Shown here one piece after another: positions 1,445 to 48,977 of a stretch of DNA of 64,000 nt. Source of the DNA: Eledone cirrhosa (lineage: Eukaryota); contig OZ024757.1 of assembly GCA_964016885.1 (NCBI GenBank), positions 32,674,001 through 32,738,000 on the forward strand. The letters are read 5' to 3'. The translations under genes and the position numbers were made by a program. The notes beneath the pieces were generated by a model. The model saw nothing but the letters and a program-made list of their open reading frames with translations. It ran no database searches and was not told where the DNA came from. Within the stretch, counting starts at the first letter, position 1; each line of letters starts with the position of its first letter.

Positions 1445-1552
1445 CTGCATGGCGTCCCTGACACATTCGCCATATTGTCGACGATAAAAATGTTCTTCAA
1501 CAGGAGAAAATGACAGCCAATGGACTGTTTCAGTCTGAGTTGGAATTTTTAT
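1445..1552 (-). CDS. SHPRH: SHPRH exon (IKIPTQTETVHWLSFSPVEEHFYRRQYGECVRDAMQ)
   Basis: ctgcag acceptor, CAG|GTGAGA donor, 108 nt. Confidence 0.93.
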
Positions 1553-1558
1553 CTGCAG

Positions 1559-1589
<31 letters not shown>

Positions 1590-1890
1590 ATGATCATAAC
1601 AACTATTATTTCTACATTTGGCCTAAGGCCAGTAATTTGGGGGTAGAGGGACAGTTGATTATAAAAATAAAAATAAATAGCTAGAAGAAATAAATGAATT
1701 TTTTTTTCAATACTCTTTTTTTAAATTTTGAACATTGAAAATAACTTAAAATACTTTCGTTTATATTTTATAATTGTACAATTCATTAACATGTCATACA
1801 GGGAGTCCCAAAAAATGTATATAGACTTTGATTAGCTGTACAGGCAATAATTACTAGAAGCTGTTGAAGTGTGTATCTATTTTTTGGGAC

Positions 1891-1932
<42 letters not shown>

Positions 1933-4900: not shown

Positions 4901-5592
4901 CTCCCTCAATCTCCAGTTCTATGATAAATATAATTCTTTCAAGCATTGATACAAGGTCAGTCATCAGAGGGAAGGGGAAAGTCCACTATAAACCCCAGTA
5001 CATAACTGATACTTTATTTTATCGACCGTGGAAGGACGAAAGGCAAAGTTGAACTCAGAACATAAAAAGTTATAACTAAATACCACAAAGCATTTTTTCT
5101 GATGCTGCACCGATTCTGCCAATCCACCATCCTCACTGGTAAATACTAATAATGATTTCTACTTTAGGCACAAGGCCATCAATTTAAGGGACAAGGAAAG
5201 TTAATTATACTGACCCCAGTACTTAACTGGTACTTTATTTTATTGACCGCAAAAGGATGAAAGGCAAAGTTGACCTTGGTGGGGTTTGAACTGAGAACAT
5301 AAAGGGCCAGAACAAACACTAAGCAATTGTCCAGAGAAGAAAAAGATTATTAATAATGATAATAGTAGAATAAAGAAAGTCTCCTTACCTCATTAATGAC
5401 ATGTTTCTTTGCCGTTCGCCATAAGACAGTTGCAACAGTTTCATACAAAGGTTGTTTGATGTCGTGTAAATATGGAATATATAGCAGTTTGTTCCACCAC
5501 TGTTGGACCCAGTAAGGATCAACACCCAGGAACAGCAATAGGCCATGTAAATCTACAACATAGACAGTTTAAATTTTAGACAAATCACATAC

Positions 5593-5626
<34 letters not shown>

Positions 5627-14600: not shown

Positions 14601-17600
14601 ATTCGTTGTTATGTTTCTCGTGTCTCAATAACATCTTTAATCCATGCTGCTGGAATTGGCGACCTGACGAAAGGAATATTGTAAATAGATGGTAAATAGA
14701 TCGAGGGACCTTCCCTCACGTCTATGTCAACAAGATAATCCAACGAGGATACTATCACTTACCACACTGGCAACTAACGACCACTGATTCTACCACCCCG
14801 CTAAAGTGGCGACTACTCTACAACTAATAACTGCTAAAGTTTTCTCGTCTGTGTAAATGAGGTGATTAATCTCATTTGCATATGAAGCTGCATAAGTTGG
14901 CTCAACTTATAATAGAATAGAAATAGGAGTTCGCTTCAAGCATAGCTTTATACAAATATGTTTCCTGTAAATTTAGAAATACGAAATTTCTATACATATT
15001 CGTATAAAGCTATGCTTGAAGCGAAATCCTATTTGGGTAGACTGGGTGCATTTAATCATGGCTCTGTCACTATTACATGAATTATAAAATAGATTAAATA
15101 AACCCCAAAATACTTACAAACCTCCATACTTGTTGTAATAAAGTATTTTTCCATCTAAAGTCTGGAATTCAGTGAAGAGAGGGTGTAGTTTATTGGCTGA
15201 AAAAGAGAAATATATTTTTTTAGAGATACCTCATTTGAAAACAAACCACCCCTTGGTGGTTTATCTAAAATCGTCTATCATAATTTTATGTAAGAACTTT
15301 TGGTATGTTATGTTTTAAACACCAGACAAATAATGAGAAAGTTAATTATATTGCTATATCACTTTGAATATTTAATTATTTTCAAAATTATTTGAAAATC
15401 ATACAGTGTTTGTTTTCTTTTCATTACAAACATGGTTAGGAAACGATTAAAGTGTTTATATTAATCTAAAAACCTTCCATCATAATTTTATGTAAGAACT
15501 TTTAAGTTACATTCAAAACACCTACTTGATAATAAAAAGTTAGTTATTTTAATTATTAAATCCTTTCAAATTCTTGCTTATTTTCAAAATTATTTGAAAA
15601 TTATAGGCAGTGTCTTTCATTGGAAATATGGTAATGAAAGGGTTAAAGAAAAATTTCTGTAGTGATTCTCACCATTTTTTTGAGAGTCGATGGTTTCTTG
15701 TTTCAACATCCAAGCCACAGACTTTTTCTGGTAATTACGAAGAAATGGTTTCAATGCCGCTGGTTGGAGATTGTCTGTGACTTCCACAGGATTCTGTTGA
15801 TGGATCTTACGTACCTCACTAAAAAGTTCCTCAATATCTGGTTTAATCGTGGCAATGCTGTTGTCATAAGCTGCAAATTTAAGCAACAATAAATTAGTTA
15901 TGATAAGCAGTCTGTTGTGGTGGTGGTGGTGGGGGGTTTCACAATGTTTACAGCCATACGCAGGTAGTTGCAAGGCAGCGAATTGGGAGACTCATTAGAA
16001 CGTCAGATGGAATGCTTTGCCATATTGGTTTCGGCTCTCTGCTCTCTGAGTTCAAATCCCGCTGGGGCCAACTTTGCCTTCCTTCCATTCCAGGTCGATA
16101 AAAGAAGTACCAGTCAAGTACAGAGGTCGTTTCTTCCCCTCTATCTCTTTCTCACTTCCATTCTCTCACTCTGGAAGAAATCTGCTGTGTTCAGACCAAG
16201 AAAAGTTTTTTAAAATGCCCTAGTAACACAGTACGTCAATACGGCATCCCTATGACTTTTTCAGGCGTTATGGAACCATACATACAGGTAGTCAATTTGG
16301 CAGAGTCATTAGAGCAGTGGATATTTGTTCCAGCGCTCTGCATGTACTCTGAGTTCAAATCCTGCCAATGTCATCTTTGCTTTTCATCATTTCAAAAGGA
16401 TTGATAAAAAAAAGTACCAATCCAGTATTGATGCAGCCCTCTTGGATGTTTTGCTGCATCAAGAAGATGTCAGATATTCCTCATGACTACAGGAGCACCT
16501 AAAACCCTTAACAAAAGCATGATACATACTACCAAACCATACACAATTGCAAATGGCAGCCTTAGCAGTTATTGCTTAAGAAAAAACTATTTTTTTTTGT
16601 TTTAAGACTACTTCATTCAAAATGAAAAGTATTAAAGTGTATTATGACAACTATAGAGGATTGTTCTGTCTTTTAGTCACAGAATTTGTGGACACAGCAT
16701 GACAGAATGGTTCAATCCCAATATATGGCATTGAGTAAATGTCATTTATTACAGCCACAGGTCGACCATTGCCTTATGAGTGAAATTAATTTAATACAAA
16801 AATATAGGGTGTATAAAAAAATCATCGAATTTTATTTACAATTTTTATAAATGCTCAATATGTAAATAACTTTATAAAAATTTATAAAAGTTATAAAAAA
16901 AAAAGAATAAAATTTTATGTTCAGACATATACTGTACAAGTTACCACATGTAAAAGTTACCACATATGTTTAAAAAATATAGCCTTTTGAAATATAACCT
17001 TTTTGATACACCCTGTATAGTGAAAATTATTTAGTGCAAACATGTAAGATATTTTGCTATTCACTTTCAAAAAATAATTAGTGCATACAGGTAAAATAAT
17101 TTTCTACTCACTTTGGGAAAATATTTAGTGATGTATACAAGTAAAATATTTTTCTACTCACTTTGGGAAAATAATTAATAATGTATACAGGTAAAATATT
17201 TTTCTACTCACTTTTGGAAAATAATTAGTGATGTATACAGGTAAAATATTTTTCTACTCACTTTGGAAATATAATTAGTGCAAACAGGTAAAATATTTTG
17301 CTATTCACTTTCAAAAAATAATTAGTGCATACAGGTAAAATAATTTTCTACTTACTTTGGGAAAATATTTAGTGATGTATACAGGTAAAATATTTTTCTA
17401 CTCACTTTGGGAAAATAATTAGTGATGTATACAGGTAAAATATTTTTCTAATCACTTTGGGAAAATAATTAGTGATGTATACAGGTAAAATGTTTTTCTA
17501 CTCACTTTGTTCATGGATGTTGTAAAAATATTTCATGATATTTTTAATAAACACAGCATTTCTTTTAATTTGTGTTGTCTCTGATGCGTAGTTCAATTTA

Positions 17601-18190
17601 GTTAAACTGGTTTCTTTTATTGATGCATATATATCTACAATGCCTGCATCAAAATCTATACCAACACACTGCATTAATACCACGTTGCATTTCAGTGCAG
17701 TGAGTACAATGTCAGGTAAATCAGAGATGACTTGAATAAAGTTTGCTTTAATGGGAGAGCCATTCTTCTTATCTTTTTCATCAACGGTTTCTTCGAAATA
17801 AAACATACTGCAACCAATCTCGTTGCTTACATACCAATAGATCGTTTCAGATGTAGGCAACCCAAATTCTCGTGCAAGTAAATTTTGTTCAGAGTTTAGT
17901 AGCTGCACTTTTAAATGACCTATTGGAAATAATCTCATTCCATTATAATTTGTCTGTAACTCTGAGAAAATTTGAAGCTTCAAGAACAAGTGGCAAGAAC
18001 TCAAGCAAAGATTAAAGAAGGTTTCTGTTCTTTCAGTTGGGAATAAATAGTTCTCAGTAGTTTTCCTACTTTTCTTAGCTTTTGCTTTCACTGTTTGATC
18101 TTCTAAAATCTTACATTTATAAGGCTGTAATAAGTTAATGGTTGATAATTCTGAACGGCGCAGTGGGATAATTTGCTTTCTTTTCCCCAT
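1445..18190 (-). CDS. SHPRH: SHPRH (SNF2-PHD-RING helicase / E3 ubiquitin ligase), 5' part: 12 coding exons, 676 codons in window; 3' exons (RING, helicase C) lie beyond the left edge
   Basis: Hand-spliced GT-AG, phase-consistent exons give LKPFLRNYQKKSVAWML, GGILADEMGLGKTVEVL (motif I), a PHD finger, ATLIVAPMSIRYQW (Ia), WWRVCLDEAQMVE (II), KWCVTGTPIQ (III) and VHWLSFSPVEEHFY, in the same order as vertebrate SHPRH. Confidence 0.95.
1799..1893. mobile_element. Tiny Tc1-type MITE; similar elements at 16805-17016 and 49960-50118
   Basis: TA|CAGGGAGTCCCAAAAAA ... TTTTTTGGGACACCCTA|TA. Confidence 0.75.
2750..3400 (-). mobile_element. Old degenerate copy of the same Tx1/L1 family (3' end)
   Basis: Minus strand reads ATGACGAAAAAGGTTGTATAGTGGACAAGATTGAAAGGGCT...GTGAATGGGGCC, matching 62063-62258 with stops and indels. 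Confidence 0.8.
5389..5552 (-). CDS. SHPRH: SHPRH exon (DLHGLLLFLGVDPYWVQQWW...LWRTAKKHVINE)
   Basis: tgtag acceptor, GAG|GTAAGG donor, 164 nt, phase 1-0. Confidence 0.94.
6001..6098. repeat. 27-bp tandem repeat, about 3.6 copies
   Basis: CCCAAAGCTATACTAGAAAAYAGCCAG. Confidence 0.95.
6186..6264 (-). CDS. SHPRH: SHPRH exon, motif III (TAEMASRLTAINKWCVTGTPIQKNID)
   Basis: cttag acceptor, G|GTAATG donor, 79 nt, phase 0-1. Confidence 0.93.
7340..7560. mobile_element. piggyBac-like ~200-220-bp MITE, representative of about 15 copies: 1222-1426, 3501-3682, 26672-26866, 31231-31438, 36525-36725, 37278-37411, 40233-40695, 41280-41390, 42484-42686, 43030-43250, 44453-44660, 45691-45881, 46220-46442, 54582-54795, 56045-56251
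   Basis: TTAA|CCCTTTAGCATTTA ... TAAATGCTAAAGGG|TTAA. Confidence 0.92.
7612..7656 (-). CDS. SHPRH: SHPRH 45-nt exon with Walker B (VCLDEAQMVECTTTK)
   Basis: ttgcag acceptor, AAA|GTAAGT donor. Confidence 0.93.
7789..8720 (-). mobile_element. RTE-type LINE 3' fragment with tail
   Basis: MLHGSETW...MLRWMC...ERRLRWYGHMMR; same family as 59605-60515; other relics near 3700-4900, 6310-6800, 38020-38400 and 63730-63940. Confidence 0.85.
9278..9357 (-). CDS. SHPRH: SHPRH exon (GKKFRKPKRYMTIPSPMVAVRWWR)
   Basis: ttgcag acceptor, CGG|GTAAGT donor, 80 nt, phase 1-0. Confidence 0.93.
9466..9807 (+). mobile_element. tRNA-headed CORE-like SINE with RTE-type tail (representative); others at 31838-32120(-), 32194-32630(+), 44025-44358(+); variants with different tails at 11420-11690, 12380-12630, 28385-28630, 35517-35850, 48720-48940, 58075-58415
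   Basis: A-box TGGCTTAGTGG, B-box GAGTTCAATT, CORE-like TCCTTGAGCAAGACACTT, (TGA)n tail. Confidence 0.85.
9971..10097 (-). CDS. SHPRH: SHPRH exon (VYEGV...YDIVVTTYETLCKELNYVDLPH)
   Basis: gacag acceptor, T|GTAAGC donor, 127 nt, phase 0-1. Confidence 0.93.
10270..11200 (-). mobile_element. Cluster of about 5 tandem copies of a second tRNA-derived SINE family (many more copies window-wide, e.g. 423-645, 26128-26300, 36280-36465, 47800-48215, 56770-56955)
   Basis: GAGTTCAAATCCCGCCGAGGTTAACTTTGCCTTTCATCCTTACGGGGTCGATAAAATAAAGTACCAG core. Confidence 0.88.
11230..11337 (-). CDS. SHPRH: SHPRH exon (EPILSGATLIVAPMSIRYQWLEEIKKHV), motif Ia
   Basis: tttag acceptor, TTT|GTATGT donor, 108 nt. Confidence 0.93.
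11955..12190 (+). mobile_element. CR1-like LINE 3' fragment
   Basis: PASVVSCRDTASFRTSM C-terminus plus a 3' UTR also found at 2570-2645 (+) and 53760-53890 (-). Confidence 0.6.
12664..12852 (-). CDS. SHPRH: SHPRH PHD-finger exon (CIC...CALC...HGEC...CPHC)
   Basis: tatag acceptor, TCA|GTAAGT donor, 189 nt; C4HC3 spacing. Confidence 0.93.
13642..13807 (-). CDS. SHPRH: SHPRH exon with SNF2 motif I (GGILADEMGLGKT)
   Basis: ctag acceptor, CAG|GTAAAT donor, 166 nt, phase 2-0. Confidence 0.95.
14158..14199 (-). ncRNA. Minimal type I hammerhead ribozyme motif (Penelope-like-element type)
   Basis: CCAUC-CUGAUGA-AGGC-cagucaa-GCCU-GAAA-UGCA-UA/GACGG: complete core, 4-bp stem II, palindromic stem III loop, stem I 4 of 5 pairs. 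Confidence 0.7.
14286..14822 (+). mobile_element. Candidate solo LTR
   Basis: TGTAG...CTACA termini, CpG-rich interior, CCAAT and AATAAA; no TSD visible. Confidence 0.4.
15118..15196 (-). CDS. SHPRH: SHPRH exon (NKLHPLFTEFQTLDGKILYYNKYGG)
   Basis: tttcag acceptor, TT|GTAAGT donor, 79 nt, phase 1-2; matches the LYYN.Y.G motif of SHPRH. Confidence 0.9.
15673..15870 (-). CDS. SHPRH: SHPRH exon (PDIEELFSEV...LKPFLRNYQKKSVAWMLKQE)
   Basis: ttgcag acceptor, G|GTGAG donor, 198 nt, phase 1-1; Q-motif-like LRNYQ. Confidence 0.93.
17020..17509. repeat. Minisatellite, about 10 x ~50 bp, overlapping the SHPRH exon-1 donor
   Basis: Unit GTAAAATATTTTTCTACTCACTTTGGGAAAATAATTAGTGATGTATACAG. Confidence 0.95.
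17506..18190 (-). CDS. SHPRH: SHPRH coding exon 1 (MGKRKQIIPLRRS...IHEQ)
   Basis: Acceptor tttacag then AG ATG; open for 685 nt; donor AAA|GTGAGT, phase 1. Confidence 0.85.
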
Positions 18191-19012
18191 CTCTGTAAAA
18201 AACACAAAGAAAAATAAAATCATCATCATCATTTTACATCTACTTTTCCCTGCTTGCAAGGGTGGCACAAGTCCTATTCAGCAGAGCATCTCTCCACTTA
18301 TCACGGACCTTCGTCATCTCCTCCGTGAGCTTCAGCAATCAGAGGTCTGCTCTCACCACCTCCGCCCATGTTTTTCATGGTCTTCCTCTACTGCGTCTTC
18401 ACATCTACATATAATCAACATATAAATTTGAGCGACTTCCATCCGTCCATCACACAATGTGTGTTTGTGTGAATGTATGCGTGTGTGTGTGTGTGTGTGT
18501 AAAAGGAAGGAAGGGGATGATGAAAAAAACTATAGCAAAACAGCAGTTGGCGTTTCATTTGCTACGCTGTGTGTGTGTGTGTGTTTGTATAAATGCATGT
18601 GTATTTGTGTGAATGCATGTCTGTGAGTGTGTATTTTTGTGTGTCTGCTTATTTATATTTATATACTCATGCATATAAATGTATGCATATGCACATACAC
18701 AAATGTACACACACATACGCATACACATCAGTATGTGGAAAAAAATCCTAGTAAATCATCATCATCATTTAATGTCTATCTTCCACACTAGCATGGGTTA
18801 GATGGAAATTGTCCCACTTGAGGCAAGATTGATCAGCTCGTATCTGGCAGGTTCTCTACAGCTGGATGCCCTTCTTAACACCAACCACTTTTACAGTGTG
18901 GACTGGGAGCTTTTTACCGTGTCTCCTAAACAATCACTTTACAGCGTGGACATAAAATAAAATAGAAATATTGATTAAGCACAAGGCCAGCAAATTTGGT
19001 GGGAGGGGAAAT

Positions 19013-19384
19013 ATACAAGGGCTGGCTGAAAAATTGATAGGCTGACCAAGATACTCTCATGGAATACTCAAATGAGGTTTATTTTTCAACATAGTCTCTA
19101 AAAAGAAACAATTATCCACGCTAGCATGGGTAGGACAGACAGAGCCTTTGTGAGAGATCAGGGCAGAGGAACTGATTTTGGCTTGCTTTCTACAGCTGGA
19201 TGCCCTTCCTAACATCAACCACATTTACAGTGTGTGTGCTGGGTGCTTATAGTTGTGACACCTACACGGCCACTTTACAATGCAGTTATTAATAAGAAGA
19301 GTTGAAATTAAGACCTGCAAGATTTCACAGCTCTAGCATCAATCCTTCATAGTCAGCTTATGAGCTTTTCTACCAATCCTTGTA
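19013..19384. mobile_element. Mariner-type MITE with a nested SINE-tail insertion; other copies at 43559-43742, 46830-47036 and 63293-63492
   Basis: TIR-like GGGCTGGCTGAAAAGTTCATAGGCTGA with TA flanks. Confidence 0.8.
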
Positions 19385-19863
19385 TTATGAATTTGTGCGT
19401 GGATACAGCATAACTGAATGATTAAGAAGTTCACTTCACCATCCTCGGCGAGATTTGAACTCAGACCGTAAAGGGTCGTAACTCTATGCCGCAAAGCATG
19501 GCGTCTGACCCTGTACCGATACTGCCAATCCAGCGCCAGAAAAATATAGTAAAACACACTCTTCTCTTTGTTGTTATATAACAGGAAAATTATTAAAGCC
19601 AGTAATAATTATCTCCCTTACACAGTTAACACTATGCAACTGAGAGCGAATTGTAATTTAAGAGTAACAATTTATATCTGATAGAAATATATATCTGTTG
19701 GAGACGCAGGACATGGCAGCGATAATGAAGGACAGGGACCGCTGGAGAGAACTCGTCCATGGATCTCGGGAATTTTACCCGCCTTAGATAGATAGATATA
19801 TATAATCAATTAATTATTGCTAAGAACCGTATAAATAAAAACATCAATTCGACACAAAGTACA

Positions 19864-20140
19864 TCAATCGGTCTCACACCACAAGAGACATCGGAAATTT
19901 TTGAGGCAAGCTAACACGCTCGCAGCATTACCGCGGGTGATGGCGAGACTAAGGTGCTGAAACAACGAAGCACCTTCACCGGCATCACCTGACAGCTCGG
20001 GAAGGTGAGCCGCCAACGATAACAAGAACTTCGCTGTCAACGGCCCACCCCCAAACGTCTCGAAAGCCATATGCTGGAAGAAATGGTTTACCGATAAGTA
20101 CCGGTACTTTAGAATTTTATTCCGTTCGGCTACGGAAACG
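19864..20140 (-). mobile_element. 3' fragment of a CRE-like (restriction-like endonuclease) non-LTR retrotransposon
   Basis: AERNKILKYRYL...MAFETFGG...LFQHLSLAITRGNAASVLA, the typical KxxKY / ETxG / QRLSxAIxRGNA end; GC-rich. Confidence 0.75.
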
Positions 20141-20176
20141 GTTAGAATTTATCAAATGTTTGTTTATGCCCCAACC

Positions 20177-20241
<65 letters not shown>

Positions 20242-20501
20242 CGAAATATAAACATATTTGAAATATTTTATTTTGCATTATCTGCTGTCTTTTGCTCTGG
20301 TATTGGCTCGGTTGTTCACCCCTTCCTTTACATTTTCTTTAATATTGCAATATTAAAAGAATATATCTTTCTGAATGAATCGCGAGCAATTTATAATGTT
20401 ATCTAAGCATTTGTAATGTTATTTATGTATATATTTAAAACATATTTGTTATGTTATTCTACTGTAAATTTATTTATATGCTCTGTTTATATTTTCATTC
20501 T

Positions 20502-21691
20502 GAAACTACAACGGAATTGGCTGTCAGAAGTGAAAGTAGAAGAATGTGACGTCAACCTTCGTTTATTTCCGTATCACCACCACCACCATGTGTGAATAAA
20601 TAAACTTTGAAATCACCACGTTGATCCAAAACTTGGTTTTTCACTTTGGGATAATACACGTGTTTGCAACTTGAAAAATATGAATTCTACATTATACCCC
20701 CTACCGCTACTATGTGGTGAACGCATGATGGAAGTAGCGAAAAAAAATGTGTCAGATGGAATTATCTGGTCATGTGGAAGGCCATGTAAAAATATGGTGT
20801 CGATTAGAAAAGGCATATTTCTAGAAAATAGTAAATTGAAGTGTGAACAAATAGTTGACATATTGTATTTTGGGGCAAAAGATTTAGCAAAGGGGATTTC
20901 AAAGGAATCTCGTATCGCTAATGTAGCTGTAGCAGATTGGTGAAAGTTTTGCCGTGATATTTAAGTTAACTCCACTTACATCGATATGCTTTATTGTTAT
21001 TTCCTTGGGTAAGTTAATATCTAAGCTTTTGCTTACACGTTAATTGCAATTGTAACAGCTAGTCTAGTTTTTAATGCACATGTTAAATCAGATTGTATAT
21101 TATCGTTTTGTTTTAATTGTACCATAACTCTGGAAAATTACGTGGTTATTTGGTACCAAATGGACATCAATACGAGAAGCAGTTATAATTATTAAACTAC
21201 GGATGTTGAATTAATTTTCTTAATCCTGTATGTTATTAAAAGGTTCCCGAGTAGTACAGTAAATTAAAGCCTTTACGAACTGAACTATGCAATGAAAGTA
21301 TTTTTAATAAGTGTATCTCATCGTAAACGTATCTCTTAGAAATTCATAAATGGCTGTGTAATACCCTTACACTTTAAAACAAAATTACAAACCAATTATG
21401 TGGTCATTGAAGTTGCTAGAAATAGCAGGCAAATCTTATACCCTCTACCACATTAAAAAAAGAAGGAACGAAAACGGGAGTAACTCGTTAATATTTATTG
21501 AAATATTCGAAGCGTTACTGCTTCGGAATGGAAACAAATCGATTACGCTAAACATAAATAAGTTGCAAACTTTATTTATTTGCACATGGTGGTGGTGGTG
21601 ATACGGAAATAAACGAAGGTTGACGAATGACGTTAGATTGACGTCACATTCTTCTACTTTCACTTCTGACAGCCAATTCCGTTGTAGTGCC
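20502..21691 (+). mobile_element. Merlin/IS1016-like DNA transposon relic
   Basis: ~105-bp inverted repeats (20505-20611 and 21564-21691); right end reads GGCACTACAACGG on the minus strand; internal remnant CGERM...DGIIWSC...C...SIRKGIFLENSKL...VADW*KFCRDI; no TSD found. Confidence 0.75.
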
Positions 21692-21764
21692 GAATTACAA
21701 ACGATTTGTAATGTTATTTATACAACTGTGAATAAAACTTTCTAAAAGAACCTAAATGTATGTA

Positions 21765-21928
21765 CCGTATTTCCCGGCGTCGAAGACGCTACTTATTTTC
21801 CTAAAATAAGTTTCAAAAATCTACCATGCGTCCTGGAGGCCGAAGTTTTTGTTTTTTTTTCAAATTTTTGGTTGTCAAATTAGGGTGCGTCCTCGAGGAC
21901 GAAGCGTTTTCGGCACCGGGAAATACGG
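21765..21928. mobile_element. Tc1/mariner-superfamily MITE
   Basis: TA|CCGTATTTCCCGG ... CCGGGAAATACGG|TA. Confidence 0.85.
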
Positions 21929-22113
21929 TATATATATGTACCCGTAACTTCTCAGGGAGTCGTGTATGTGCCGTAAAGGAGTCCTTCTCTCTCCAGGCAT
22001 GAACATTTCTTCCAGAGAACGTAATAGAGGAAGTATCGATCTTCAGTACGGACCCGGTACTTTTTTTATCGACCTCGAACCGGCACAAATACCGCAAAGC
22101 ATTCTATCTAGAA

Positions 22114-22565
22114 CAGCGGTTCCCAACCTTTTATAATAAATTCCACCTTAAAGTATGGCTCCCCCCCAAAAAATTAAAATTTTTGATATAATTTTTTTAT
22201 GTAGAAATAATTTCGGCGTGTCTTTTTATTCCAATCAAATCATTTTAAATTTATTATAAACTTTACTAAAATAAATAATATATATCCTGTTATAAAAATA
22301 AGTTTCTTTACTAAGTTTAGTTACTAAAACATAAATTGTTATATCCAGATTTAAATAGTGAAGTGAAATCATAATTAGAAAAGGTAGAAAGTTGATAAAA
22401 AGTTGAATATAAAAATTTGAAGCAAGAAAAATAAAAAATTATGTTAGGAAACTACTCTTCTTTTTTATGTATGAAATTTTGTGATTTTTAGTTAATTCCC
22501 GTGGCTACCCCAGTAACTAGCTATGGCCCACTGGTGGACCATGGCCCCCTGGTTGGGAACCAATG
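22114..22565. mobile_element. hAT (Charlie-like) MITE
   Basis: CAGCGGTTCCCAACC ... GGTTGGGAACCAATG with a perfect 8-bp TSD ATCTAGAA (22106-22113 and 22566-22573). Confidence 0.92.
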
Positions 22566-23125
22566 ATCTAGAACGTAAATAAAGTTATGTTAAAGCCCGC
22601 CGAGGTTCACTTTGCCTTTCATCCTTACGGGGTCGATAAAGTAATGCACTGGGATAATTGCTGTCCTTGTGCCAAAAGTAGAAACAATTATTATTAATTC
22701 TATAACTGTCTTAGGAGAGTTCTTTTCTTGTATGCTGTGATTTCCAAAATTACACGAAAGAAAACTTATCTCTCTCTCTCTCATACACATACGCGCACGC
22801 AATACTCGTGATTCCTAAGATAGAAAAAAAAAACATTTCTTGGCTATTGAAATATTTATATAAATACTTCATTTTTCTATTATTTGCAACTACATTTTTT
22901 AGTAGATCGTATATAAAAATAAAGTTATATCAAAGCAAATTTATTCGATCTTATATTGTCTTGACGATGTCTGAATGTAATTTGTCCAGATATTAAAACC
23001 TTAGATCACACTGAAATAACAAGGAAGTGGGATATTTAAAATAAATGTAATATTATAAATGTGATATTGCAACATAGATGCCGGGGTTAAATCCAGCTTT
23101 CTAACATTATTTAATAATAATAATA

Positions 23126-23156
<31 letters not shown>

Positions 23157-23243
23157 CAGAAAAAAGTCGGTTCTGTAATTTAAAAACAAAATCCTTCTAA
23201 TTTAAATTCACTTTTAAAAGTAACGTAGATGAAATGGATTTAC

Positions 23244-25476
23244 CTGAAGTTATTAGTGACAATTATCAAAATTGATTGATTAAAATGACTCAATAACCGA
23301 AAATAATCAAAAGTAAGTTGATGGATACGAAGCGTTTTCATAAAATCCTGCCATCTTTGTTATGAAATCTATTGTTTACGGAATCAAAACAGCTTATGTA
23401 TTTTCAAAACTTTCGTATTTTATATTGCATTTAATAAATACTTCTAAATCATTTTTTGTTATTATTAATAAAGCAATCCTTTGTCATTGGTACGCGGAAA
23501 ATAAAAATAGGGATTTTCGATGATGGAGTGTTTATTTAGTTTCGTATGCACAAATTACGAAATGCATATCTTAACCATTAAGATGGATCTTCTTCTTGAG
23601 TCATCCCTCTTTCGAAGGTGAAGCATTCATTTTGCTTTTTCTAATGGCTAGAATATATGCAGCTCGTCACACCTGCATAGTCATAGATTTATCTGGTCGC
23701 TCATGGAGCAGTTGTGCCGACCCATTGTCGAATTAATGGATCATTTGCGAAGCCACTGGTGTTCACAACGCCAAGGCCATCTAATTGAACTAATGATCGA
23801 TAACTTAACGTAATAAATTAGATTGACTTTGCCTTTCATCCTTACGGGGTCGATAAAATAAAGTACCAGTAATGAACTAGGTTATTGCTGGCCTTGTGCC
23901 TAAAGTAGAAACAAATAAATTAGATAAGATATTTTCGTTATTTTATTTTCAAGTATTGATATCTATTTGTGAATTCTCTCTCGGTGCACCAATAACAAAC
24001 ATCAATGAACGTTTTCGCATTTATAATTATAATTAGCATAATGAAGATAAACACACAGAAATAAATGCTTCTTCTTCTTAGCCCACTTATTCCTGGGAAT
24101 ATATCTATATAATAACATTTAAATGGTCTCTGATATCTGTTGTATAATAAATAGGTTTTATTTATAATTAGCGTAATTAAGATGAACAAACACAGAAATA
24201 AATGCTACTTCTTCGCCCACTTATTCCTGAGAGGGTCGTTGGGGCAGAGTCCAGAAACACCCCTTCCAGCGGGTCTTGTCAGTTGGAGACGGTGGCTTCT
24301 GTAAGGACCCGCTGAAAGCAGTGTTTCAGGACTCTGCCCCAACGACCCTCTCAGGAATAAGTGGGCGAAGAAGTAGCATTTATTTCTGTGTGTTTGTTCA
24401 TCTTCATTACGCTAATTATAAATAAAACGTATTTATTATACAACAAATATGAGTGCCGATTTAAATATTACTATATAAATATATACAGAATTTGTTTGAT
24501 ACATTTCCAGTATTCGAAAAATAAACGAGAGAAAACGACGATTGTCAAATGTAAAGAAAAAAAGGTGGGGTGAGAAAATCACACACCTCAACAAAGGGCA
24601 ATGCTACAAATGTGTTTGACTTGCCTCAAAAATTATTAGACTGGGGATCTAGCGCTACTTATTGTAACGAGTGCTTGAGCTAATTTAACATGGGGATGAA
24701 TTTTATTCAGTTATTTGTCACCCTAAGGCGATGGATTGGCAGAATCGTTAGAGTGGGAAATAAAATGCCTTGCATCATTTGTTCCTGCTTCTGGAGATAA
24801 GACTTGGAAGTTCTTCACACATCCACAGATGCAAAACCTTAGACACGTCATCATTGTTGTATGCCGAAGTCATTGTATTTCTGAGTTCAAATAGCATCGA
24901 GGTCAACTTTGCCTTTCTACCTTTCGTAGTCGATATAATAAAGTACCAGTCATTCTCCTCTCCACTAATTACAGGCAGTGTACCTCAATTAGATATCTTT
25001 ATTTTGTCAGCCTTCTCCTATCTGCACCATTAAGCTCTGTGACACGATGTTTATCAGTTCAATACATAATATATAGATGCGGGTAAAATACGATGGAATG
25101 TGAGGTCAAAGGTGTCTTTAATTGTTTTAACTTTAATCAGAGGACATTTTAAATAGTACACCGGTTGTGAGAAAGGCGACTTACTACTTTGTACATATCA
25201 AATTCTCGCGCAAAAAGAAAATGTTTTGTAGTTTCGTATCTACTGAATAGTTAAATTATAATTATTAGTTCAATAATAATATATAGGTTTTTTTTTTATT
25301 CGAACTTATATTAATGGAATTTGGTTGTTGTTTTAACTTTTCTTAATATTTTGGTTAACAAAAACTGGTTAGTTCTTGAAAGTTTCGTACAGGTTGCTTC
25401 AGTTTGATGACGACTTGGTTGAATTCTGGCGCCAAACCTAATAATATATATATTTATATAGTTGTGGTGTTTCTTG
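23244..25476. promoter_or_regulatory. Putative shared divergent promoter region of SHPRH and ATAD5, including candidate non-coding first exons
   Basis: Minus-strand donor CAG|GTAAAT at 23244 with a YY1-like AAGATGGC near 23350; plus-strand donor TTG|GTAAGT at 25476; E2F consensus TTTGGCGC on the minus strand at 25429-25436; both first coding exons start with acceptors, so upstream exons are required. Confidence 0.45.
23935..24535. repeat. Long palindromic (foldback/MITE-like) element
   Basis: Arms ~24100-24281 and ~24298-24485 are near-perfect reverse complements; partial extra arm copy at 24030-24095. Confidence 0.9.
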
Positions 25477-25706
25477 GTAAGTGGCTCTGTGTTTATATCA
25501 TTGTATAATGCTATCTCTCTCTGTTGGATCTAACTTGACCTTATCCTCAATATATTTGTTTAATTAATCAGACAACTAAATAAAAAATAGAATACTCATT
25601 AACTCTGTCGTGAACTTTTACTGACGCCTACCATCGAATGTATATATATATACACACTCTAACGTTTGGTTTTATTTATAAATGGAAGAACACTTTATAG
25701 AGAGTA

Positions 25707-25752
<46 letters not shown>

Positions 25753-26981
25753 CGTATGTCAGTTTCAGCTAACAAAAGACATACACACGTATGTACATAT
25801 AAGTTCCTCCTATTGAAATATTTTATCATTCTAATAAGGTCTGTGTTAGATATTTTAGTTTAAGGATTGGTAGAGCATCAGATAAAGAGGCATTGCGTTA
25901 TTTGTTCTGGCTCTTAACTTACTATGATCAAATTCCGCCGATGTCAATTTCACTTTTTATTCTCCCGTAGTCGATAAAATATAGTACCAGTCAAACTAGT
26001 TTTATTTAATCAACTTTGCCCTTCCCCTAAGTTTGCTCAATATATCATTAAATTAGAAATCGATATTATTTTGATTTAACCGCGTCCTCTTGAGAATTAT
26101 GTCTTTTATTTGCCTGAAAAGCATCGGACGCGGTGGATTGGCAGTATCGGTAGAGAGTCGGACGCCATGTTTTGACGCATATTCTGAGTTCAAATCCCGC
26201 CGAGGTTAGCTTTGCTTTTCATCCTTACGGGGTCGATAAAATAAAGCACCAGTAATACACTGGGAGTAATTGCTGGCCTTGTGCTAAAAGTAGAAATAAT
26301 CTAGCAGATGTTCTGTTATCAATATTATTCCAGCCGCAAACCTCTCTTTGAGAGCAATATCCATTATACCATTACTCTTTTACCTGTTCCCATCATCCGA
26401 CTGAGGCCATGCTGTAATACCGATTACATGTTTTAAAATAGTCTATAGGGTGTGATTTGAGGAAGATATGACTATTATTTCCGTCCAGTGTACAGGCACC
26501 CGCGGTGTCTTATAGTCTTTGTTTACGATGAGGCTATTTTTGCTTAACGGGATATATAACTACTTTATCTACTAATATGCTCTTTATTTATTTAAGTTCA
26601 AACGACCACGTTCCGGCTCTCAGCACTCTGAGTTCAAATCCTGTCGTGGTCAACTTTGTCTTTTATCCTTCTTTTAGCATTTAATCCAGCCAGAGTTCTT
26701 TCACCTCTTTCTGTTCAAACTGGCTGTAACTTATCATTCATGCTTGCTTTGAGGTATTCTTCTCAAAATAAATAATATCAAAATCTCATAGATTCGATAT
26801 AATGTCAGATAAAGCCTTTACCCTGAAAATATAATAGTAAATATAGAGTAATGTGAGTGCTAAAGGATTAAGGGGATTTTAATTATTTTGAGCCCAGTTA
26901 CTTTTTCAAGCCTCGTACTCATTTTTATCAAACTCTTTTTGTCAGAGTGCTGCGCTACAGAACATAAATGCTGACCCAAAT

Positions 26982-27019
<38 letters not shown>

Positions 27020-27230
27020 CATGCATACACACAAGCGTCTATAGTTTCCATTTACTAAATTCCATTCAGTAGAAGAAACTTGCTCAATGGGATTGAACCC
27101 CGAACCAGATGGTTGTTCTGGGACTTCCTTAATCATATAGCCATGCCTGCATCTATAATGTATTCTTTTTTAGCTTTTGTATTTGTGTTTTGCCTTTATT
27201 CTCAGATGCCTGAATTCATGATAACCTAAA

Positions 27231-27284
27231 ATGCTTGGGTCTTGTGTAGTCAACAGTCCTAATGGCCCATTAGGCTGTCAAAAG
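27231..27284 (+). CDS. ATAD5: ATAD5 probable first coding exon (MLGSCVVNSPNGPLGCQK); exon begins at 27206
   Basis: ttctcag acceptor at 27205, AAG|GTAAGA donor, phase 0 matches the next exon. Confidence 0.65.
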
Positions 27285-30200
27285 GTAAGACTGTCTTACA
27301 ATTAAATATATTATTACTATTTCATGTATACGTCAAATCTTTCTATTCTTTAACAAACCTATGTAATGTAGACCAACAATTGTTTTAACTTGAACATAAA
27401 TATATTCAGATTAAATGAAAACTAATATTGAACCCAAGCAAATGTAAAACATACACCTATACTCAACACCCAACCACTTAAAGATAAGCTAAATCACACA
27501 CGTCTTTCTAACTATCTCCCATTAAACCAACCACTGACCCACACTAATCACTGCTATGAGGAAGCTGGACGTCATCAGGCTGCAGCTGTCATGTTATATA
27601 GTTTCTATATATGATCTAGTATTTAAGGTGTTGCACTAACGATCATAATGTCATGGGTTTGATTCTTGGACCAGATAGTGCATTGTGTTCTTGAGAAAAA
27701 CACTTACTGTATACAGTAAGTGTCCACCTTACAAACTTCTGCAGATACAAACAGTCTCACGCAGAAAAAAAAACATTTTTCTTCTGGGGCGTGTTATTTA
27801 GGGCCCAACACAATCGATTTTTTTTTTTTTTGTTACATACTCCTCGGTTTATATTTCAGTATATACAGTAATTTCACATTGCCCCAGTACATTCAGCTAA
27901 AACTGAGTACCATCAGTAGCTGGAGGTTAAACCCTGCTATGGACTGGTGACCTGTCCAGAGAGGTGTCTTGTATTTTGTCACTGAACACCGATGAAACTG
28001 AGATGACCACTGACCTGATGACCCTCTGGACTTGGAGGGAAAAAACAAAAAATGTATGCATGGACTCCTGATGGAGCCATAGGGGTACCATAGAAATATA
28101 GAGTGTATCTTGGGTATTTAAAACCTGACAGAGCCATCCCCTCTCAAGGTCTGAATCCAGCTGATTTCCTCCAGAGAAGAAGAGAAAGAATCAACCCTAA
28201 TACTAGACTAGTGTTTTTCTTATCAAGTGCTAATGTATGAAAGTTGATCTAGGCAGGATTTGAACTCAGAATGCAGAAAGCCTCAACAATGCCACAAAAT
28301 ATTCTATACGATATTCAATCTAATTCATCACCTTTGTTATTTATCTAGCCATCACAATGATTTTGGTGGTTTGATATCTAATGTCTAAAGTCTGTCTCAA
28401 GCAGGAGGCTTGTCAGACTGGTACTTATCTTGGTTTTGTGGCGTGAAGCGACTGAGAGTACAAGACCTCACCTTGGACAGGGCGCCAGTCCATCACAGGG
28501 TTAAACACCCAGCTATTGCTGGTACTCATTTTCAGCTTAGTATACTGGAACAACATGAAATGAAGTATTTTGCTCAAGAAGACAACCCATCCAATGGCAT
28601 TATGATCATAAGTCCAACACCCTTACCTCTAGTTAAATCTGTCAAATTATCTTAATATCAGTCTTTTCTTTTCCTTCATTAGGATGTGAATACTACAAAG
28701 AAGACCATAGCAGATTTCTTTGGCAAACCATCTCAGAATAATCTTAGTTCTGTTAAAAAACCAAAGAATATTCTTGGATATTTTTCTAAAAACATAAATA
28801 ATTCACACGGGACTGATGACAGAACAAAGACATCAGTAGGTTCAGAGATCTCGGAAGAACTTCCTCAAGTTCCTACTAAGAACAATGTGGTTAAAAAGAA
28901 CTCTTTGAAGAAGAATCCTCCGACAACCAGTTCTTCGGATAAAAACGGTTCCAATGCCAGTTCTTTGGATAAAAAACGGAAACGTGTTAACAAGAAGGTA
29001 GTGAATGGCGATGAAGATTTTGTTGAAGATGTTCAACCGAAACGTTTTAAATCTACAGATGGTCAAGAACTAAGTACTAACAGAAACATATCTACTCATT
29101 CAAATGTGCCTCTGTCATCAGAGAAAACACCTCAAAATATTTCTAATGTAAAACTAAAATCTCAGGTTGGTAAAATAGTTGGCGAAAATGTCAATCTTTG
29201 CAATAACGACGACAATGATTTTATTTCTAAAAAGGATGCAAAGCCTCGTAAGGAAGAAGTTGTTGGGGGTAAAAAGGAGAAAAAATTACCAAAACGGAAA
29301 TACACTAAGAAAAATACCCAAAACCACGTATCTTCTTCTGGTAAAAATAAAATTCTGAAGAGAAAATCAAAAGTGAATTTTTCAAAAAACCAACAATCCA
29401 ATATTGGTGAAGGAAATGAATTAAGCAAGTTTGAGTGTGAAAAAGAAAGAAAGCAGCCATCAAAAAATGACAATAAAAAAGAAGAAAAGCCAGATTCCAA
29501 GGAAATTTTTCAAAGTGACACCTGTAACAGCAGTGCTGACAGAGAATCAGCTCAACCTGGAGTGATAGACTCTGACACTAAGTCAGATTTAACCAACACT
29601 AAGTTGGGTTTAACCAACACTAAGTCAGATTTAACTGACACTAAGTCAGATTTGACTGGCACCAAGTCAGATTTGACTGACACTAAGTCAGATTTAACTG
29701 ACACTAAGTCAGATTTGACTGGCACCAAGTCAGATTTGACTGACACTAAGTCAGATTTGACTGACACTAAGTCAGATTTGACTGACACTAAGTCAGATTT
29801 GACTGACACTAAGTCAGATTTGACTGACACTAAGTCAGATTTGACTGACACTAAGTCAGATTTGACTGACACTAAGTCAGATTTGACTGACACTAAGTCA
29901 GATTTGACTGACACTAAGTCAGATTTGACTGACACTAAGTCAGATTTGACTGGCACTAAGTCAGATTTGACTGGCACTAAGTCAGATTTGACTGGCACTA
30001 AGTCAGATTTGACTGGCACTAAGTCAGATTTGACTGACACTAAGTCAGATTTGACTGACACTAAGTCAGATTTGACTGACACTAAGTCAGATTTGACTGG
30101 CACTAAGTCAGATTTGACTGGCACTAAGTCAGATTTGACTGGCACTAAGTCAGATTTGACTGGCACTAAGTCAGATTTGACTGGCACTAAGTCAGATTTG

Positions 30201-33200
30201 ACTGGCACTAAGTCAGATTTGACTGGCACTAAGTCAGATTTGACCGACACCAAGTCGGGTTTAGCCGACACCAAGTCGGATTTAACCAAAAGTTGTCAGT
30301 CTCATAAGATCGAATCTGATGAAAAGGATGAACTAAATGCTATGGAACTCTCGTACGAAGAATTCTTACTTTCTGAGACTGTCACAGAAGAGGAGGAGGA
30401 GGAGTCCTCGGATGTGAATTCTGCTGAAATTAGTCCAGAAAAGGCATCTTCTACATGTGTGTCTGTTACTATGCAAATAAAAGAGATACCTGATTTGCAA
30501 CGAGTTAGTGTTGTGGCAGACATACATCCAGAACCATCTGTAAACAACTTGACAACTGCTAATTCTATTAAGAAGGCCAGTAAATCTATGATAGCTGTTT
30601 TGAAAGATGTCCCCTCCTCAGAAGTGATTAAAGCTAAACAAGGAGACATCAATGACATCATTGTTCTAGGCGTGGAACCATTAGATAAAACTGACGAGGT
30701 TGTTATTGTTGTTGATGAGGCTCCACATAAGGATGAGCAGAAGGAAACTTCATCAATTAATACCAGCACCAAGAAAGTCACCTCTAACCGTAAGTCTAAG
30801 CCTAAACCCATCTCTAAAGGTAAAAACAAAAAGTCTGCAGTAATATCTAATTCTCCAGGTGTAAAATGTTCACAGTCAACACTGAATTTTGAGCAAGGTC
30901 ATTTAGATCTGAATTCGAAATCATCTAATGAAAGCAGTCCAGTTGAAAAATCTAAAAGAACCCTGAAAACTGATTCAAAGCAACCAAATGTTGCTGCTGA
31001 GATTACTGAGAAGCCGCAACAGAACAAACGTATTTACAAAAAGAATAAACAAAAAGATTTGGTATTGAATAAATACAAAGATAAAAATTTTTCTCAAAAT
31101 TCTACCAAGCGAGTTAAATCCCCCGAAATACCAGCTGTTTCACACCAGCCTAAGAAAAGGAAAAATAAATTAGGCAAGAGGAAATATGAAAAAAGTTCTT
31201 CAAAATCGTGAGTTGACATTCTATTTATAACCCTTTAACATTTAAACCTGCCATATCTGCCCAGAATTCTCTCACCTCTTTCTGTTCAAACCGGCCATAA
31301 CCGGCTGCTCATACCAACGCCAAGGTATTGTTCTCAAAATAAATAACATCAAAATCTCGTAGATTCGATATTATGTTAGATAAGGCCTTTACCACAAAAA
31401 TACAATAGTAAATATAGAGTAATGTAAATGCTAAAGGGTTAATCAAGTTTTTTTTTTTGTATTTAACTTTGAAGTTGTGTCGTTCATACAGCTTTCACAT
31501 TGTGGTTTTAGTTGACCACTTAGGAGATTTAAGAGGGCCCCAATTTTATCACACATATCATCATCATTGTCACTGTTTAATGCCCTTTTTTCCATGTTAG
31601 CATGGGTTAGACAAGTCCCGTTGTGAGACAAGTCGGATCAGGTGATCTAGTCTTGCTTATACTGAACTATTTCTGGTTTGGTTTGTACAGCAGGATGCCC
31701 TTCCTAACACCAACCACATTTACATTGTAGACTGGGTGCTTTTTATCATGGCACCAAAACGACTTTACAGTGTGGACTGGGCACTTTTTGCCGTGACACC
31801 AATATGACCACTTTACAGTATATATATTTATATATCATCATCATCATTTTACGTCCGCTTTTCCCTTCTTGCAAGGGTGGGACGGGAACTGATTCTGGCT
31901 TGATTTCTACAGCTGGATGCCCTTCCTAACACCAACCTCATTTACAGTGAGTGCTGGGTGCTTTTTTGCAGTGGAATGATAGGGACCCCTGTCCCTATCA
32001 TCTCATTTCTACAGCTGAGTAAACTGGAGCAATGTGAAATAAAGTGTCTTGCTCAAGGAAACAACACATCACCCGGTCTGAGAATTGAACTCACAACCTT
32101 TCGATTGCAAGGCCATATGCCTGTGTATATATATAAAATCATACATCCGTTTTCCTTGCTTGCAAGGGTTGGACGTGTGTGTGTATATATATAGGCGCAT
32201 GGCTTAGTGGTTAGAGCATTGGGCTTGCAATCGAAAGGTTGTGAGTTCTATTCTCAGACCGGGTGATGTGTTGTTTCCTTGAGCAAGACACTTTATTTCA
32301 CATTGCTCCAGTTTACTCAGCTGTAGAAATGAGATGATAGGACTGCGGTCCTTATCATTCCACTGCAAAGTAGTCGTGGAGGTGCCACTGAAAAAAAGCA
32401 CCCTACCCACACTGTAAAGTGGACATGTAGGTATCACGGGGGAAAAAGCACCCAGCACTCACTGTAAATCAGGTTGGTGTTAGGAAAGGCATACAGCTGT
32501 AGAAATCAAGCCAGAATCAGTTCCCGTATGAGCAAGACAAGGTCAGCCGACCGGACACTGCCCACAACAAGACAACCCGTCTAACCCATGCTAGCGTGGA
32601 AGAACGGACATAAAACGGTGATGATGATGATAAGCGTCTCTGTTTTACATCTATTTTCTGTGTTTGCATGGGTTAGACAGGTCAAATGACCGTGTCTTAC
32701 TCATATGCTCCATTCTGGTATGGTTTCTAAGGTTGAGGACCCTTCTTAATGCCAACTACTTCATGTGTACTGGGTGCATTTTATCATGGCGCCAACACTG
32801 CCCCTTTGTTGTTAGGGCTCTCTCTTCATAGGTTTTGCCAGACTCCTATGTAGGGTGCATCTCTTAGAAAGTGTCATGGATATCTTCATAAGGAGGCCAC
32901 AGCCCTATCATGTTAGCATTTTTCTATCAACAAAAGTTAGGATTTGAACCCAAAACCAAAACATATCCCATCCAACAATCTAAGACTGTGGTTACCAAAC
33001 TGTGTGCCATGGCACATTAATGTGCTGTGTGATATAACTAGATGTGCCACAAAAGACTAAGATTTAAGATGTGAAAAATACAAACTGAAATTCATATGAA
33101 TAAATATAAATATTATTGTATGGGACAAATTTGTAGTCAAAGGGTTAAATCAAATATGTAATGATAAAATAACAAAAGTGAACATCTGTATTTTCTCTTT

Positions 33201-48200: not shown

Positions 48201-48942
48201 AGTAGAAACAATTATTATTATTATTATTATTTTATTTTTATAACTAGTGCCTGCTGCAAAAAAATCAATACCTCGATGTATTTTCCGTAAATCACCTGGG
48301 ACAGGTTCTTGGAAGAAGATTGATATTGTTGAGAACAGTAACCTGGATTTGAACCACAAAACTCCTGTATTGAATTCTACTGAGAAGGTTTCAAATAGAC
48401 TCAACATTGTCAGTACATCTCTCATTCTTTTTGATGAAGTAAGTAATCATCATCGTTTTATGTCCAATTTTCCATGCTCGCATTGGTTGCTTTACAACCA
48501 AATACCCTTCCTGAAGCCAACCCATTTAGTCACTCCTTACAACATGCTGGGATAAAGTCTACCTATTCTAAAACCTGGGATACACATGGCAATATATGTG
48601 GCACTAACATAGCATGGTTCATCATTGGAGTGTATATGGAAGTATATACGATATGTTTATGTAAAATAAACATATCTTGTATACTTTCATATACACCCCT
48701 ATGATATATATAACAGTCGATCGACAAGATCCCAGACCTCATCAAATCGGACCAAGGAAACAATGTTTCCATTGGTCTTTCCAATTGCTAATACTATCTA
48801 CTGGTCACAAATCCAAGCAGAAGAAGCAACGTGAAATAAAGTGTCTTGATCAAAGACGTAACGCATCACCCGGTCTGGGAATTGAACTCAGAACCCCACA
48901 ATTGCAAATCCAATTCTCCAACTATTCAACCACACGCCTTCA

Positions 48943-48977
<35 letters not shown>

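What the first reader, a model, noticed from the sequence alone, without database searches (positions are those of the whole stretch)
18190..27231. Head-to-head SHPRH and ATAD5: PCNA ubiquitin writer and PCNA unloader sharing an upstream region
Seen: the two genes diverge with no other host gene between them. The ATGs are ~9 kb apart, the candidate first-exon donors are ~2.2 kb apart, and an E2F consensus site is present. Established: SHPRH is a Rad5-like E3 that K63-polyubiquitinates PCNA. ATAD5-RLC unloads PCNA and recruits USP1-UAF1 to deubiquitinate it. The human genes are on different chromosomes (6q and 17q). Inference: a possibly unreported co-regulated PCNA-cycling module under a bidirectional S-phase promoter.
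Basis: partly seen in the sequence, partly recalled or inferred. Interest (0 to 1): 0.72.

Follow-up and report, generated by a model that had tools for sequence, protein, structure and literature searches.

The report
Octopod back-to-back SHPRH–ATAD5 gene pair
Two genes whose human counterparts tag and remove the DNA-copying clamp PCNA sit back to back in this octopod genome and are linked in four other octopods but in none of the other animals checked, likely a by-product of octopod chromosome reshuffling in which each gene likely keeps its own promoter about 2 kb from the other.

Summary
SHPRH (minus, ATG 18190) and ATAD5 (plus, ATG 27231) diverge with no protein-coding host gene found between them. 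A spliced contig confirms the SHPRH leader exon (23244 to at least 23346). The ATAD5 leader donor at 25476 is only inferred. Accession order links the pair in 4 of 4 named octopods, but in 0 of 18 non-cephalopod animals; squid and cuttlefish could not be tested. So the pair is derived, not ancient. The shared-promoter reading is weak. The SHPRH transcript end and the E2F site lie 2.08 kb apart, and 45% of that gap is repeats. The one strict E2F site sits 40 nt from the ATAD5 candidate donor, in the same orientation as the conserved site at human ATAD5, so it likely is ATAD5's own G1/S element. Window-wide the motif occurs at chance level (2 seen, 1.97 expected). PCNA and UAF1 lie on other chromosomes. 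Published data show that novel cephalopod microsyntenies tend not to be co-expressed. Most likely: two separate promoters in one unmethylated stretch, made neighbours by chromosome mixing. A selected co-regulated PCNA module is not excluded (about 0.2).

The parts
680..18192 (-). SHPRH coding exons inside the window (ATG at 18190); the gene continues about 20 kb left of the window
   Evidence: SHPRH helical domain and RING with its Cys/His ligands in the neighbouring stretches L002-L003
18193..23243 (-). SHPRH intron 1 (5051 nt, GT-AG on the minus strand), repeat-rich; its 4 kb nearest the leader exon are not CpG-depleted
   Evidence: spliced X3 contig; CpG o/e 1.14 over 19250-23243
23244..23346 (-). 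SHPRH non-coding leader exon; 23346 is only where the contig stops, so the start site lies here or further right
   Evidence: record 2, depth 5.9; DNA-like runs read straight through 23167-23617
23350..23357 (-). AAGATGGC motif just beyond the contig end (YY1-like; name recalled; weak)
   Evidence: AANATGGC 14 seen against 11.0 expected window-wide, so not enriched
23584..25005 (.). Repeat-filled spacer: dispersed repeats at 23584-23800, 23818-23949 and 24873-25005, and an inverted-repeat element within 24021-24484
   Evidence: 946 of 2082 nt between 23347 and 25428 are repeat
25204..25215 (.). Weak E2F-like near-palindrome (one mismatch on each strand)
25429..25436 (-). Strict E2F consensus TTTGGCGC in single-copy DNA, 40 nt before the candidate ATAD5 leader donor
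   Evidence: same orientation as the conserved human ATAD5 site at -26
25469..25482 (+). Candidate splice donor of the ATAD5 leader exon (last exon base 25476); inferred; rival donor at 25367
   Evidence: compatible with the unplaced end of the X3 contig, not shown directly
27206..27284 (+). ATAD5 first coding exon: 7-codon upstream ORF 27206-27229, main ATG 27231
28681..55247 (+). Remaining ATAD5 coding exons, with the P-loop in 42750-42974 and an in-frame 21-nt tandem repeat at 29572-30283
19250..26500 (.). CpG-undepleted (likely unmethylated) domain spanning both 5' ends, between two CpG-depleted gene bodies
   Evidence: o/e 0.95-1.14 against 0.41 and 0.37

Best explanation
SHPRH and ATAD5 are divergent neighbours in this octopod genome, likely brought together by cephalopod chromosome fusion and mixing, and each likely uses its own promoter, about 2 kb apart, within one CpG-undepleted stretch. 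The E2F site is likely ATAD5's ancestral G1/S element, and SHPRH likely starts near 23.35 kb without a strict E2F site. The pair likely persists across octopods because the two 5' ends leave a small breakpoint target and local gene order has had limited time to decay. Any co-expression would be the incidental kind that neighbouring housekeeping genes show. Shown: identities, orientation, SHPRH leader exon, motif positions, repeat content, octopod-only linkage by accession order. Inferred: ATAD5 leader position, both start sites, methylation state, E2F binding, origin by reshuffling, neutrality.
For: Unlinked outside cephalopods: 17 of 18 species have the two genes on different records (12 bivalves and abalones, 1 annelid, 2 hemichordates, 2 fishes). 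The 18th, Macrotis, has them on one 274-Mb record but 1,196 accessions apart. In Lottia the rows beside ATAD5 are SEC24C and NDNF. Octopod chromosomes were shaped by fusion-with-mixing (PMC12682272). [quoted passage not shown] Spacer of 2082 nt with 946 nt of repeats. The E2F site is 40 nt from the ATAD5 candidate donor and 2083 nt from the SHPRH contig end; there are 0 strict sites in 23244-23800. Mammalian ATAD5 has its own functional E2F site with no SHPRH beside it; SHPRH does not appear in that paper's supplements, whose table lists S-phase DREAM targets with conserved E2F sites (PMC5716687). PCNA is on C5 and the UAF1/WDR48 domain on C7. Octopus intergenic DNA is poorly methylated by default (PMC9476566), and the flank L004-L010 is also largely undepleted, so one continuous CpG domain does not imply one promoter.
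Against: Linkage is kept in 4 of 4 named octopods, including Argonauta. Both proteins act on the same PCNA ubiquitin cycle in human cells. Under random gene order a 25-gene pathway would give only about 0.006-0.008 head-to-head pairs; a 400-gene replication/repair set gives about 2 (toy model with assumed gene numbers). In human, none of 35 DNA-repair genes with bidirectional promoters has a repair partner (PMC3403606), so same-pathway pairs are uncommon. Without the repeats only about 1.1 kb separates the SHPRH contig end from the E2F site. No start-site or expression data. No control for how often arbitrary neighbours stay adjacent across these octopods.
Confidence: 0.62

Rival explanations
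1. A once-compact bidirectional promoter, since inflated by repeat insertions in this 3-Gb genome, drives both genes through E2F. Selection keeps the pair because matched S-phase supply of a PCNA ubiquitin ligase and of the PCNA unloader and deubiquitination scaffold is useful.
For: Adjacent in three Octopus species and nearly so in Argonauta. About 1.1 kb of unique DNA in the spacer. One strict and one weak E2F-like site in single-copy DNA. This genome's PCNA gene has two E2F-like sites about 125-150 nt before its ATG, so the grammar is in use here. One CpG-undepleted domain covers both 5' ends.
Against: Both sites cluster at the ATAD5 end. Four repeat segments sit between the starts. Unlinked in 18 of 18 outgroups. 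SHPRH has other substrates (nucleosome E3 ligase, abstract of PMC6702750). The vertebrate UAF1-binding segment (human 368-384) is not cleanly conserved in octopod ATAD5, so the eraser role is inferred. Other pathway genes are unlinked.
Confidence: 0.2
2. Two promoters, but with enhancer sharing of the bystander type: the ATAD5-proximal E2F region, or elements in the 4 kb of undepleted SHPRH intron 1, act on the neighbour and so discourage breakage without tight co-expression.
For: PMC9023564 describes novel cephalopod microsyntenies as closer to the bystander model. The undepleted domain is asymmetric: about 4 kb into SHPRH intron 1 and about 1 kb into ATAD5 intron 1.
Against: No conserved non-coding element could be tested, since no relative's DNA was available. 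At least 38% of the intron is repeats, including an element of about 1.2 kb with inverted ends, which can account for the CpG content.
Confidence: 0.13
3. The ATAD5 leader exon lies elsewhere, or one leader is much longer than seen, so the real start-site distance differs a lot from 2 kb.
For: Only 7-8 letters of the ATAD5 leader were seen and could not be placed. Contigs cannot show starts. One sample of one study.
Against: The two best compatible donors (25476, 25367) fall in the single-copy stretch that holds the E2F sites; the other 25 score 4.5 bits or less. CpG depletion resumes about 1 kb to the right.
Confidence: 0.05

Closest known systems
Cephalopod-specific microsyntenies (Schmidbaur et al. 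2022, PMC9023564; passages and supplements seen)
   Same: Old metazoan genes newly brought together in cephalopods, with short intergenic distance and kept across species.
   Different: Their blocks need three or more genes and presence in Euprymna plus an octopus. Here a pair is shown for octopods only. Neither gene name occurs in the 7 supplementary files searched.
Bidirectional promoters of DNA-repair genes (PMC3403606 passages; PMC1853124 listing only)
   Same: Divergent housekeeping repair genes in CpG-rich DNA.
   Different: Defined by starts under 1 kb apart; here about 2 kb with repeats between. In human the partner of a repair gene is not itself a repair gene (0 of 35).
Mammalian ATAD5 promoter with a single E2F element (Mueller et al., PMC5716687; passages and supplement row seen)
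   Same: One E2F consensus on the antisense strand close to the ATAD5 5' end (human TTCGCGC at -26; here TTTGGCGC 40 nt before the candidate donor).
   Different: Binding by E2F, RB and DREAM was shown for the mouse promoter; here only the motif is seen, and the neighbour differs.
Human PCNA ubiquitin cycle: SHPRH/HLTF with UBC13-MMS2; ATAD5-RLC with UAF1-USP1 (PMC11348035 and PMC8080817 passages; PMC13086300 abstract)
   Same: Both octopod genes are clear orthologues with the catalytic motifs in place.
   Different: Human ATAD5 is on chr17 and SHPRH on 6q (recalled). No activity has been tested in a cephalopod here.

Membership tests
SHPRH subfamily | SNF2 ATPase with PHD, SHPRH helical region and C3HC4 RING; best hits are SHPRH | tested here: met
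SHPRH subfamily | Linker-histone H15 domain as in vertebrates | not tested
   PF00538 is missing from the precomputed domain lists of the invertebrate hits; not scanned on this gene as a whole
SHPRH subfamily | K63 polyubiquitination of PCNA | not testable with these tools
   human data only
ATAD5/Elg1 | RFC1-like AAA+ domain with P-loop; best hits are ATAD5 | tested here: met
ATAD5/Elg1 | UAF1-binding region (human 282-400, with a motif overlapping 368-384) | tested here: inconclusive
   two conserved N-terminal blocks are shared with mouse, one of them inside this region, but the segment matching 368-384 is diverged in cephalopods; the motif sequences of PMC11348035 were not seen
Bidirectional promoter | Divergent adjacent genes on opposite strands | tested here: met
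Bidirectional promoter | Start sites under 1 kb apart | tested here: inconclusive
   about 2.0-2.1 kb on present placement, leaning not met; the starts are not mapped and the ATAD5 leader is inferred
Bidirectional promoter | Shared elements drive both directions; co-expression | not testable with these tools
   only contigs of one sample; depth cannot rank expression
Ancient (pan-bilaterian) conserved gene pair | Adjacent in non-cephalopod animals | tested here: not met
   0 of 18 species; Lottia neighbours differ
Coleoid-specific microsynteny | Linked in a decapodiform as well as an octopus, three or more genes | not testable with these tools
   Sepia pharaonis SHPRH accession found, but no named decapodiform ATAD5

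The most novel reading that the evidence does not exclude
Cephalopod genome reshuffling put a PCNA ubiquitin ligase and the PCNA unloader under one E2F-controlled divergent promoter, creating a lineage-specific two-gene unit that co-times the writing and removal of PCNA ubiquitin. It would be a newly evolved same-pathway regulatory unit, a type not found among human repair-gene bidirectional pairs, and it has been kept from Octopus to Argonauta.
Probability: 0.2. Interest if true: 0.6.

Novelty: new member of a known kind. Interest (0 to 1): 0.3.

Why it matters
If neutral, it is one more product of cephalopod chromosome mixing, plus a useful annotation: the SHPRH leader exon, and a likely ancestral E2F element at ATAD5 shared with mammals. 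If co-regulated, it would be a datable case of a rearrangement creating functional coupling between opposing enzymes of one pathway, and a clean test of whether new cephalopod gene neighbourhoods gain function. The pair was not found in print in three searches; most subscription journals are not covered.

Tried and rejected
No RNA holder listed: none of the 4 runs is on record as RNA. X3 is treated as RNA-like only because its contigs join exons at GT-AG ends while X1, X2 and X4 read through those places. The lack of X3 cover at 25.1-25.5 kb is no evidence against the ATAD5 leader. The joint and loose-end tables were swamped by repeats. The CpG domain as proof of a shared promoter was rejected, because intergenic DNA is undepleted by default here. 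The similar domain at L014, with two E2F matches, is a retroelement rather than a promoter. The donor-like motifs at about 20978 and at 21008 were rejected: both lie inside the inverted-repeat element 20505-21688. The AANATGGC motif is not enriched. Decapodiform synteny: 10 further proteins looked up gave no named squid or cuttlefish ATAD5. Supplements of PMC9023564, PMC13218726, PMC12407938 and PMC4994865 gave no gene-name hits; file 1 of PMC4994865 was not searched and may hold the cell-cycle status of SHPRH. The part of Data S1 of PMC12682272 that was read (part 1 of 400) has no gene ids. File 4 of PMC8851819 is cut, so the absence of SHPRH there is weak. Rows dropped before the 18-species count: four fishes with only the atad5b paralogue listed (Esox, Umbra, Mugil, Myxocyprinus; all on different records) and Chelonoidis (no contig lengths). 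The HIRAN search of the genome found no match, inconclusive for HLTF. No complex or structure prediction was run, as no binding claim is made. Earlier-finding look-ups near this place and by sequence were empty.
Full report
Setting. The window is G000:C18:32,674,001-32,738,000 of a 3.0-Gb genome. Its proteins are closest to those of Octopus and Argonauta, so I call it an octopod.

Genes. The left gene is SHPRH. Its first coding exon is 77% identical to the O. bimaculoides protein. SNF2 and PHD matches lie in the window, and the SHPRH helical domain and a C3HC4 RING lie just left of it. The right gene is ATAD5, with hits over the whole protein and a P-loop exon. The ATGs are at 18190 (minus) and 27231 (plus), 9041 nt apart. 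The three intergenic ORFs scanned had no Pfam match.

Leader exons. None of the four runs found is on record as RNA, but X3 behaves as RNA. One contig joins 18192 to 23244 across a canonical intron and stops at 23346. Another joins 27282 to 28681 and has 7 letters left over beyond 27205. The DNA-like runs read straight through these places. The SHPRH leader exon is therefore shown, from one sample of one study. An upstream ATAD5 exon exists but is not placed. Of 27 donors compatible with the contig end, 25476 (9.5 bits) and 25367 (9.3) stand far above the rest (4.5 or less), scored with a small matrix built from this window's own donors. Contigs cannot show start sites.

Spacer. From the SHPRH contig end to the E2F site there are 2082 nt, of which 946 fall in four repeat segments. 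The stretch 24960-25700 is single-copy in the genome search. CpG observed/expected is 0.95-1.14 from 19250 to 26500, against 0.41 and 0.37 in the gene bodies. This fits octopus gene-body methylation with unmethylated intergenic DNA (passages of PMC9476566). The gene-poor flank to the left is also largely undepleted, so the domain does not prove one promoter.

E2F. One strict site lies at 25429-25436. Window-wide the count is at chance (2 against 1.97). In the donor-to-donor stretch P is 0.10; in the 477 nt before the ATAD5 candidate donor it is 0.01, a post hoc window; there is no strict site in 23244-23800. Mouse Atad5 is controlled through a single E2F element (passages of PMC5716687). The human site lies on the antisense strand at -26, and SHPRH does not occur in that paper's three supplementary files. 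The octopod site has the same orientation and sits 40 nt before the candidate donor. The PCNA gene of this genome has two E2F-like sites about 125-150 nt before its ATG. The simplest reading is that this is ATAD5's own inherited G1/S element; binding is inferred.

Conservation. No other animal genome could be read, so record lengths and accession order served as a proxy; they show neither strand nor distance. O. vulgaris: ATAD5 CAI9738377, SHPRH CAI9738378-79, same record. O. bimaculoides: XP_014771804 and XP_014771805, same record. O. sinensis: XP_036367888-889 and XP_036367890, same record, though the older pair XP_029649198 and XP_029649247 is 49 apart, so RefSeq order is an imperfect guide. 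Argonauta hians: GAB1606975 and GAB1606977, same record, with one unidentified entry between. Outside cephalopods, 17 of 18 species with both genes listed have them on different records. These are two Haliotis, three Mytilus, Dreissena, Mactra, Mercenaria, Saccostrea, Ylistrum, Mizuhopecten, Potamilus, Owenia, Glandiceps, Ptychodera, Chanos and Acnodon; three of them are scaffold-level assemblies and so weaker. Macrotis has both on one 274-Mb record, 1,196 accessions apart. In Lottia the rows beside ATAD5 are SEC24C and NDNF (supplement of PMC8851819). Squid and cuttlefish were not testable. PCNA is on C5 and the UAF1/WDR48 domain on C7 of this genome.

Is the pairing more than chance? For a narrow 25-gene pathway, random order gives under 0.01 head-to-head pairs; for 400 replication and repair genes it gives about 2 (toy model). 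A scan that reads 1757 windows of this genome and picks a pathway story afterwards will meet such pairs. Against chance: same-pathway pairs are absent among 35 human repair genes with bidirectional promoters (passages of PMC3403606), and the pair is kept from Octopus to Argonauta. I had no control for how often arbitrary neighbours survive over that span. Octopod chromosomes arose through fusion-with-mixing (passages of PMC12682272), and new cephalopod gene blocks tend not to be co-expressed (passages of PMC9023564).

Biochemistry. In human cells SHPRH or HLTF build K63 chains on PCNA, and ATAD5 unloads PCNA and bridges UAF1-USP1, also for polyubiquitinated PCNA (passages of PMC11348035 and PMC8080817). 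SHPRH also ubiquitinates nucleosomes (abstract of PMC6702750) and, in vitro, unmodified PCNA (abstract of PMC13086300). Octopod ATAD5 keeps two N-terminal blocks shared with mouse, but the segment matching the vertebrate UAF1-binding residues 368-384 is diverged. The writer-eraser story is thus transferred from human, not shown here.

Verdict. Best reading (0.62): a derived neighbour pair with two promoters about 2 kb apart and an ATAD5-specific E2F site. Rivals: a shared E2F promoter under selection (0.20), enhancer sharing (0.13), misplaced leaders (0.05). The pair was not found in print in searches. It is a new member of a known kind; interest 0.3, or 0.6 if co-regulation were shown.

Noticed in passing
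L001:5701-6600 (G000:C3, about 290,183.7-290,184.6 kb): Young processed copy of SHPRH mRNA: seven exons joined, 97-100% identical to the parent, frameshifted, covering about residues 682-967. It implies germline expression of SHPRH.
   Followed up: partly
window 23341 (minus) and 27206-27229 (plus): Both leaders carry upstream ORFs. In SHPRH a 51-codon out-of-frame ORF overlaps the main ATG; in ATAD5 a 7-codon ORF stops 1 nt before it. Possible translational damping; conservation untested.
   Followed up: partly
window 29572-30283: In-frame 21-nt tandem repeat, 33.9 copies at 95%, in the ATAD5 N-terminal region; the O. sinensis protein shows no matching stretch.
   Followed up: no
L020:4150-4180 (G000:C5): Two E2F-like sites just upstream of the PCNA start codon.
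   Followed up: partly
whole genome G000: No HIRAN-domain match. HLTF may be missing or merely split across exons; unresolved.
   Followed up: no
window 20505-21688: Multi-copy element of about 1.2 kb with 94-98% inverted ends in SHPRH intron 1. Its 110-codon ORF recalls a Merlin/IS1016 transposase fragment (from memory; no Pfam match).
   Followed up: no
L012:5995-6180 (+): HIT-domain (HINT-like) exon about 25 kb beyond the ATAD5 stop, the next host gene found on that side.
   Followed up: no
window 60683-62275 and L014:761-3886: Non-LTR retroelement reading frames with reverse transcriptase matches; they account for local CpG peaks.
   Followed up: no
window 17040-17509: 50-nt minisatellite, 9.6 copies, starting right at the donor of the first SHPRH coding exon.
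   Followed up: no
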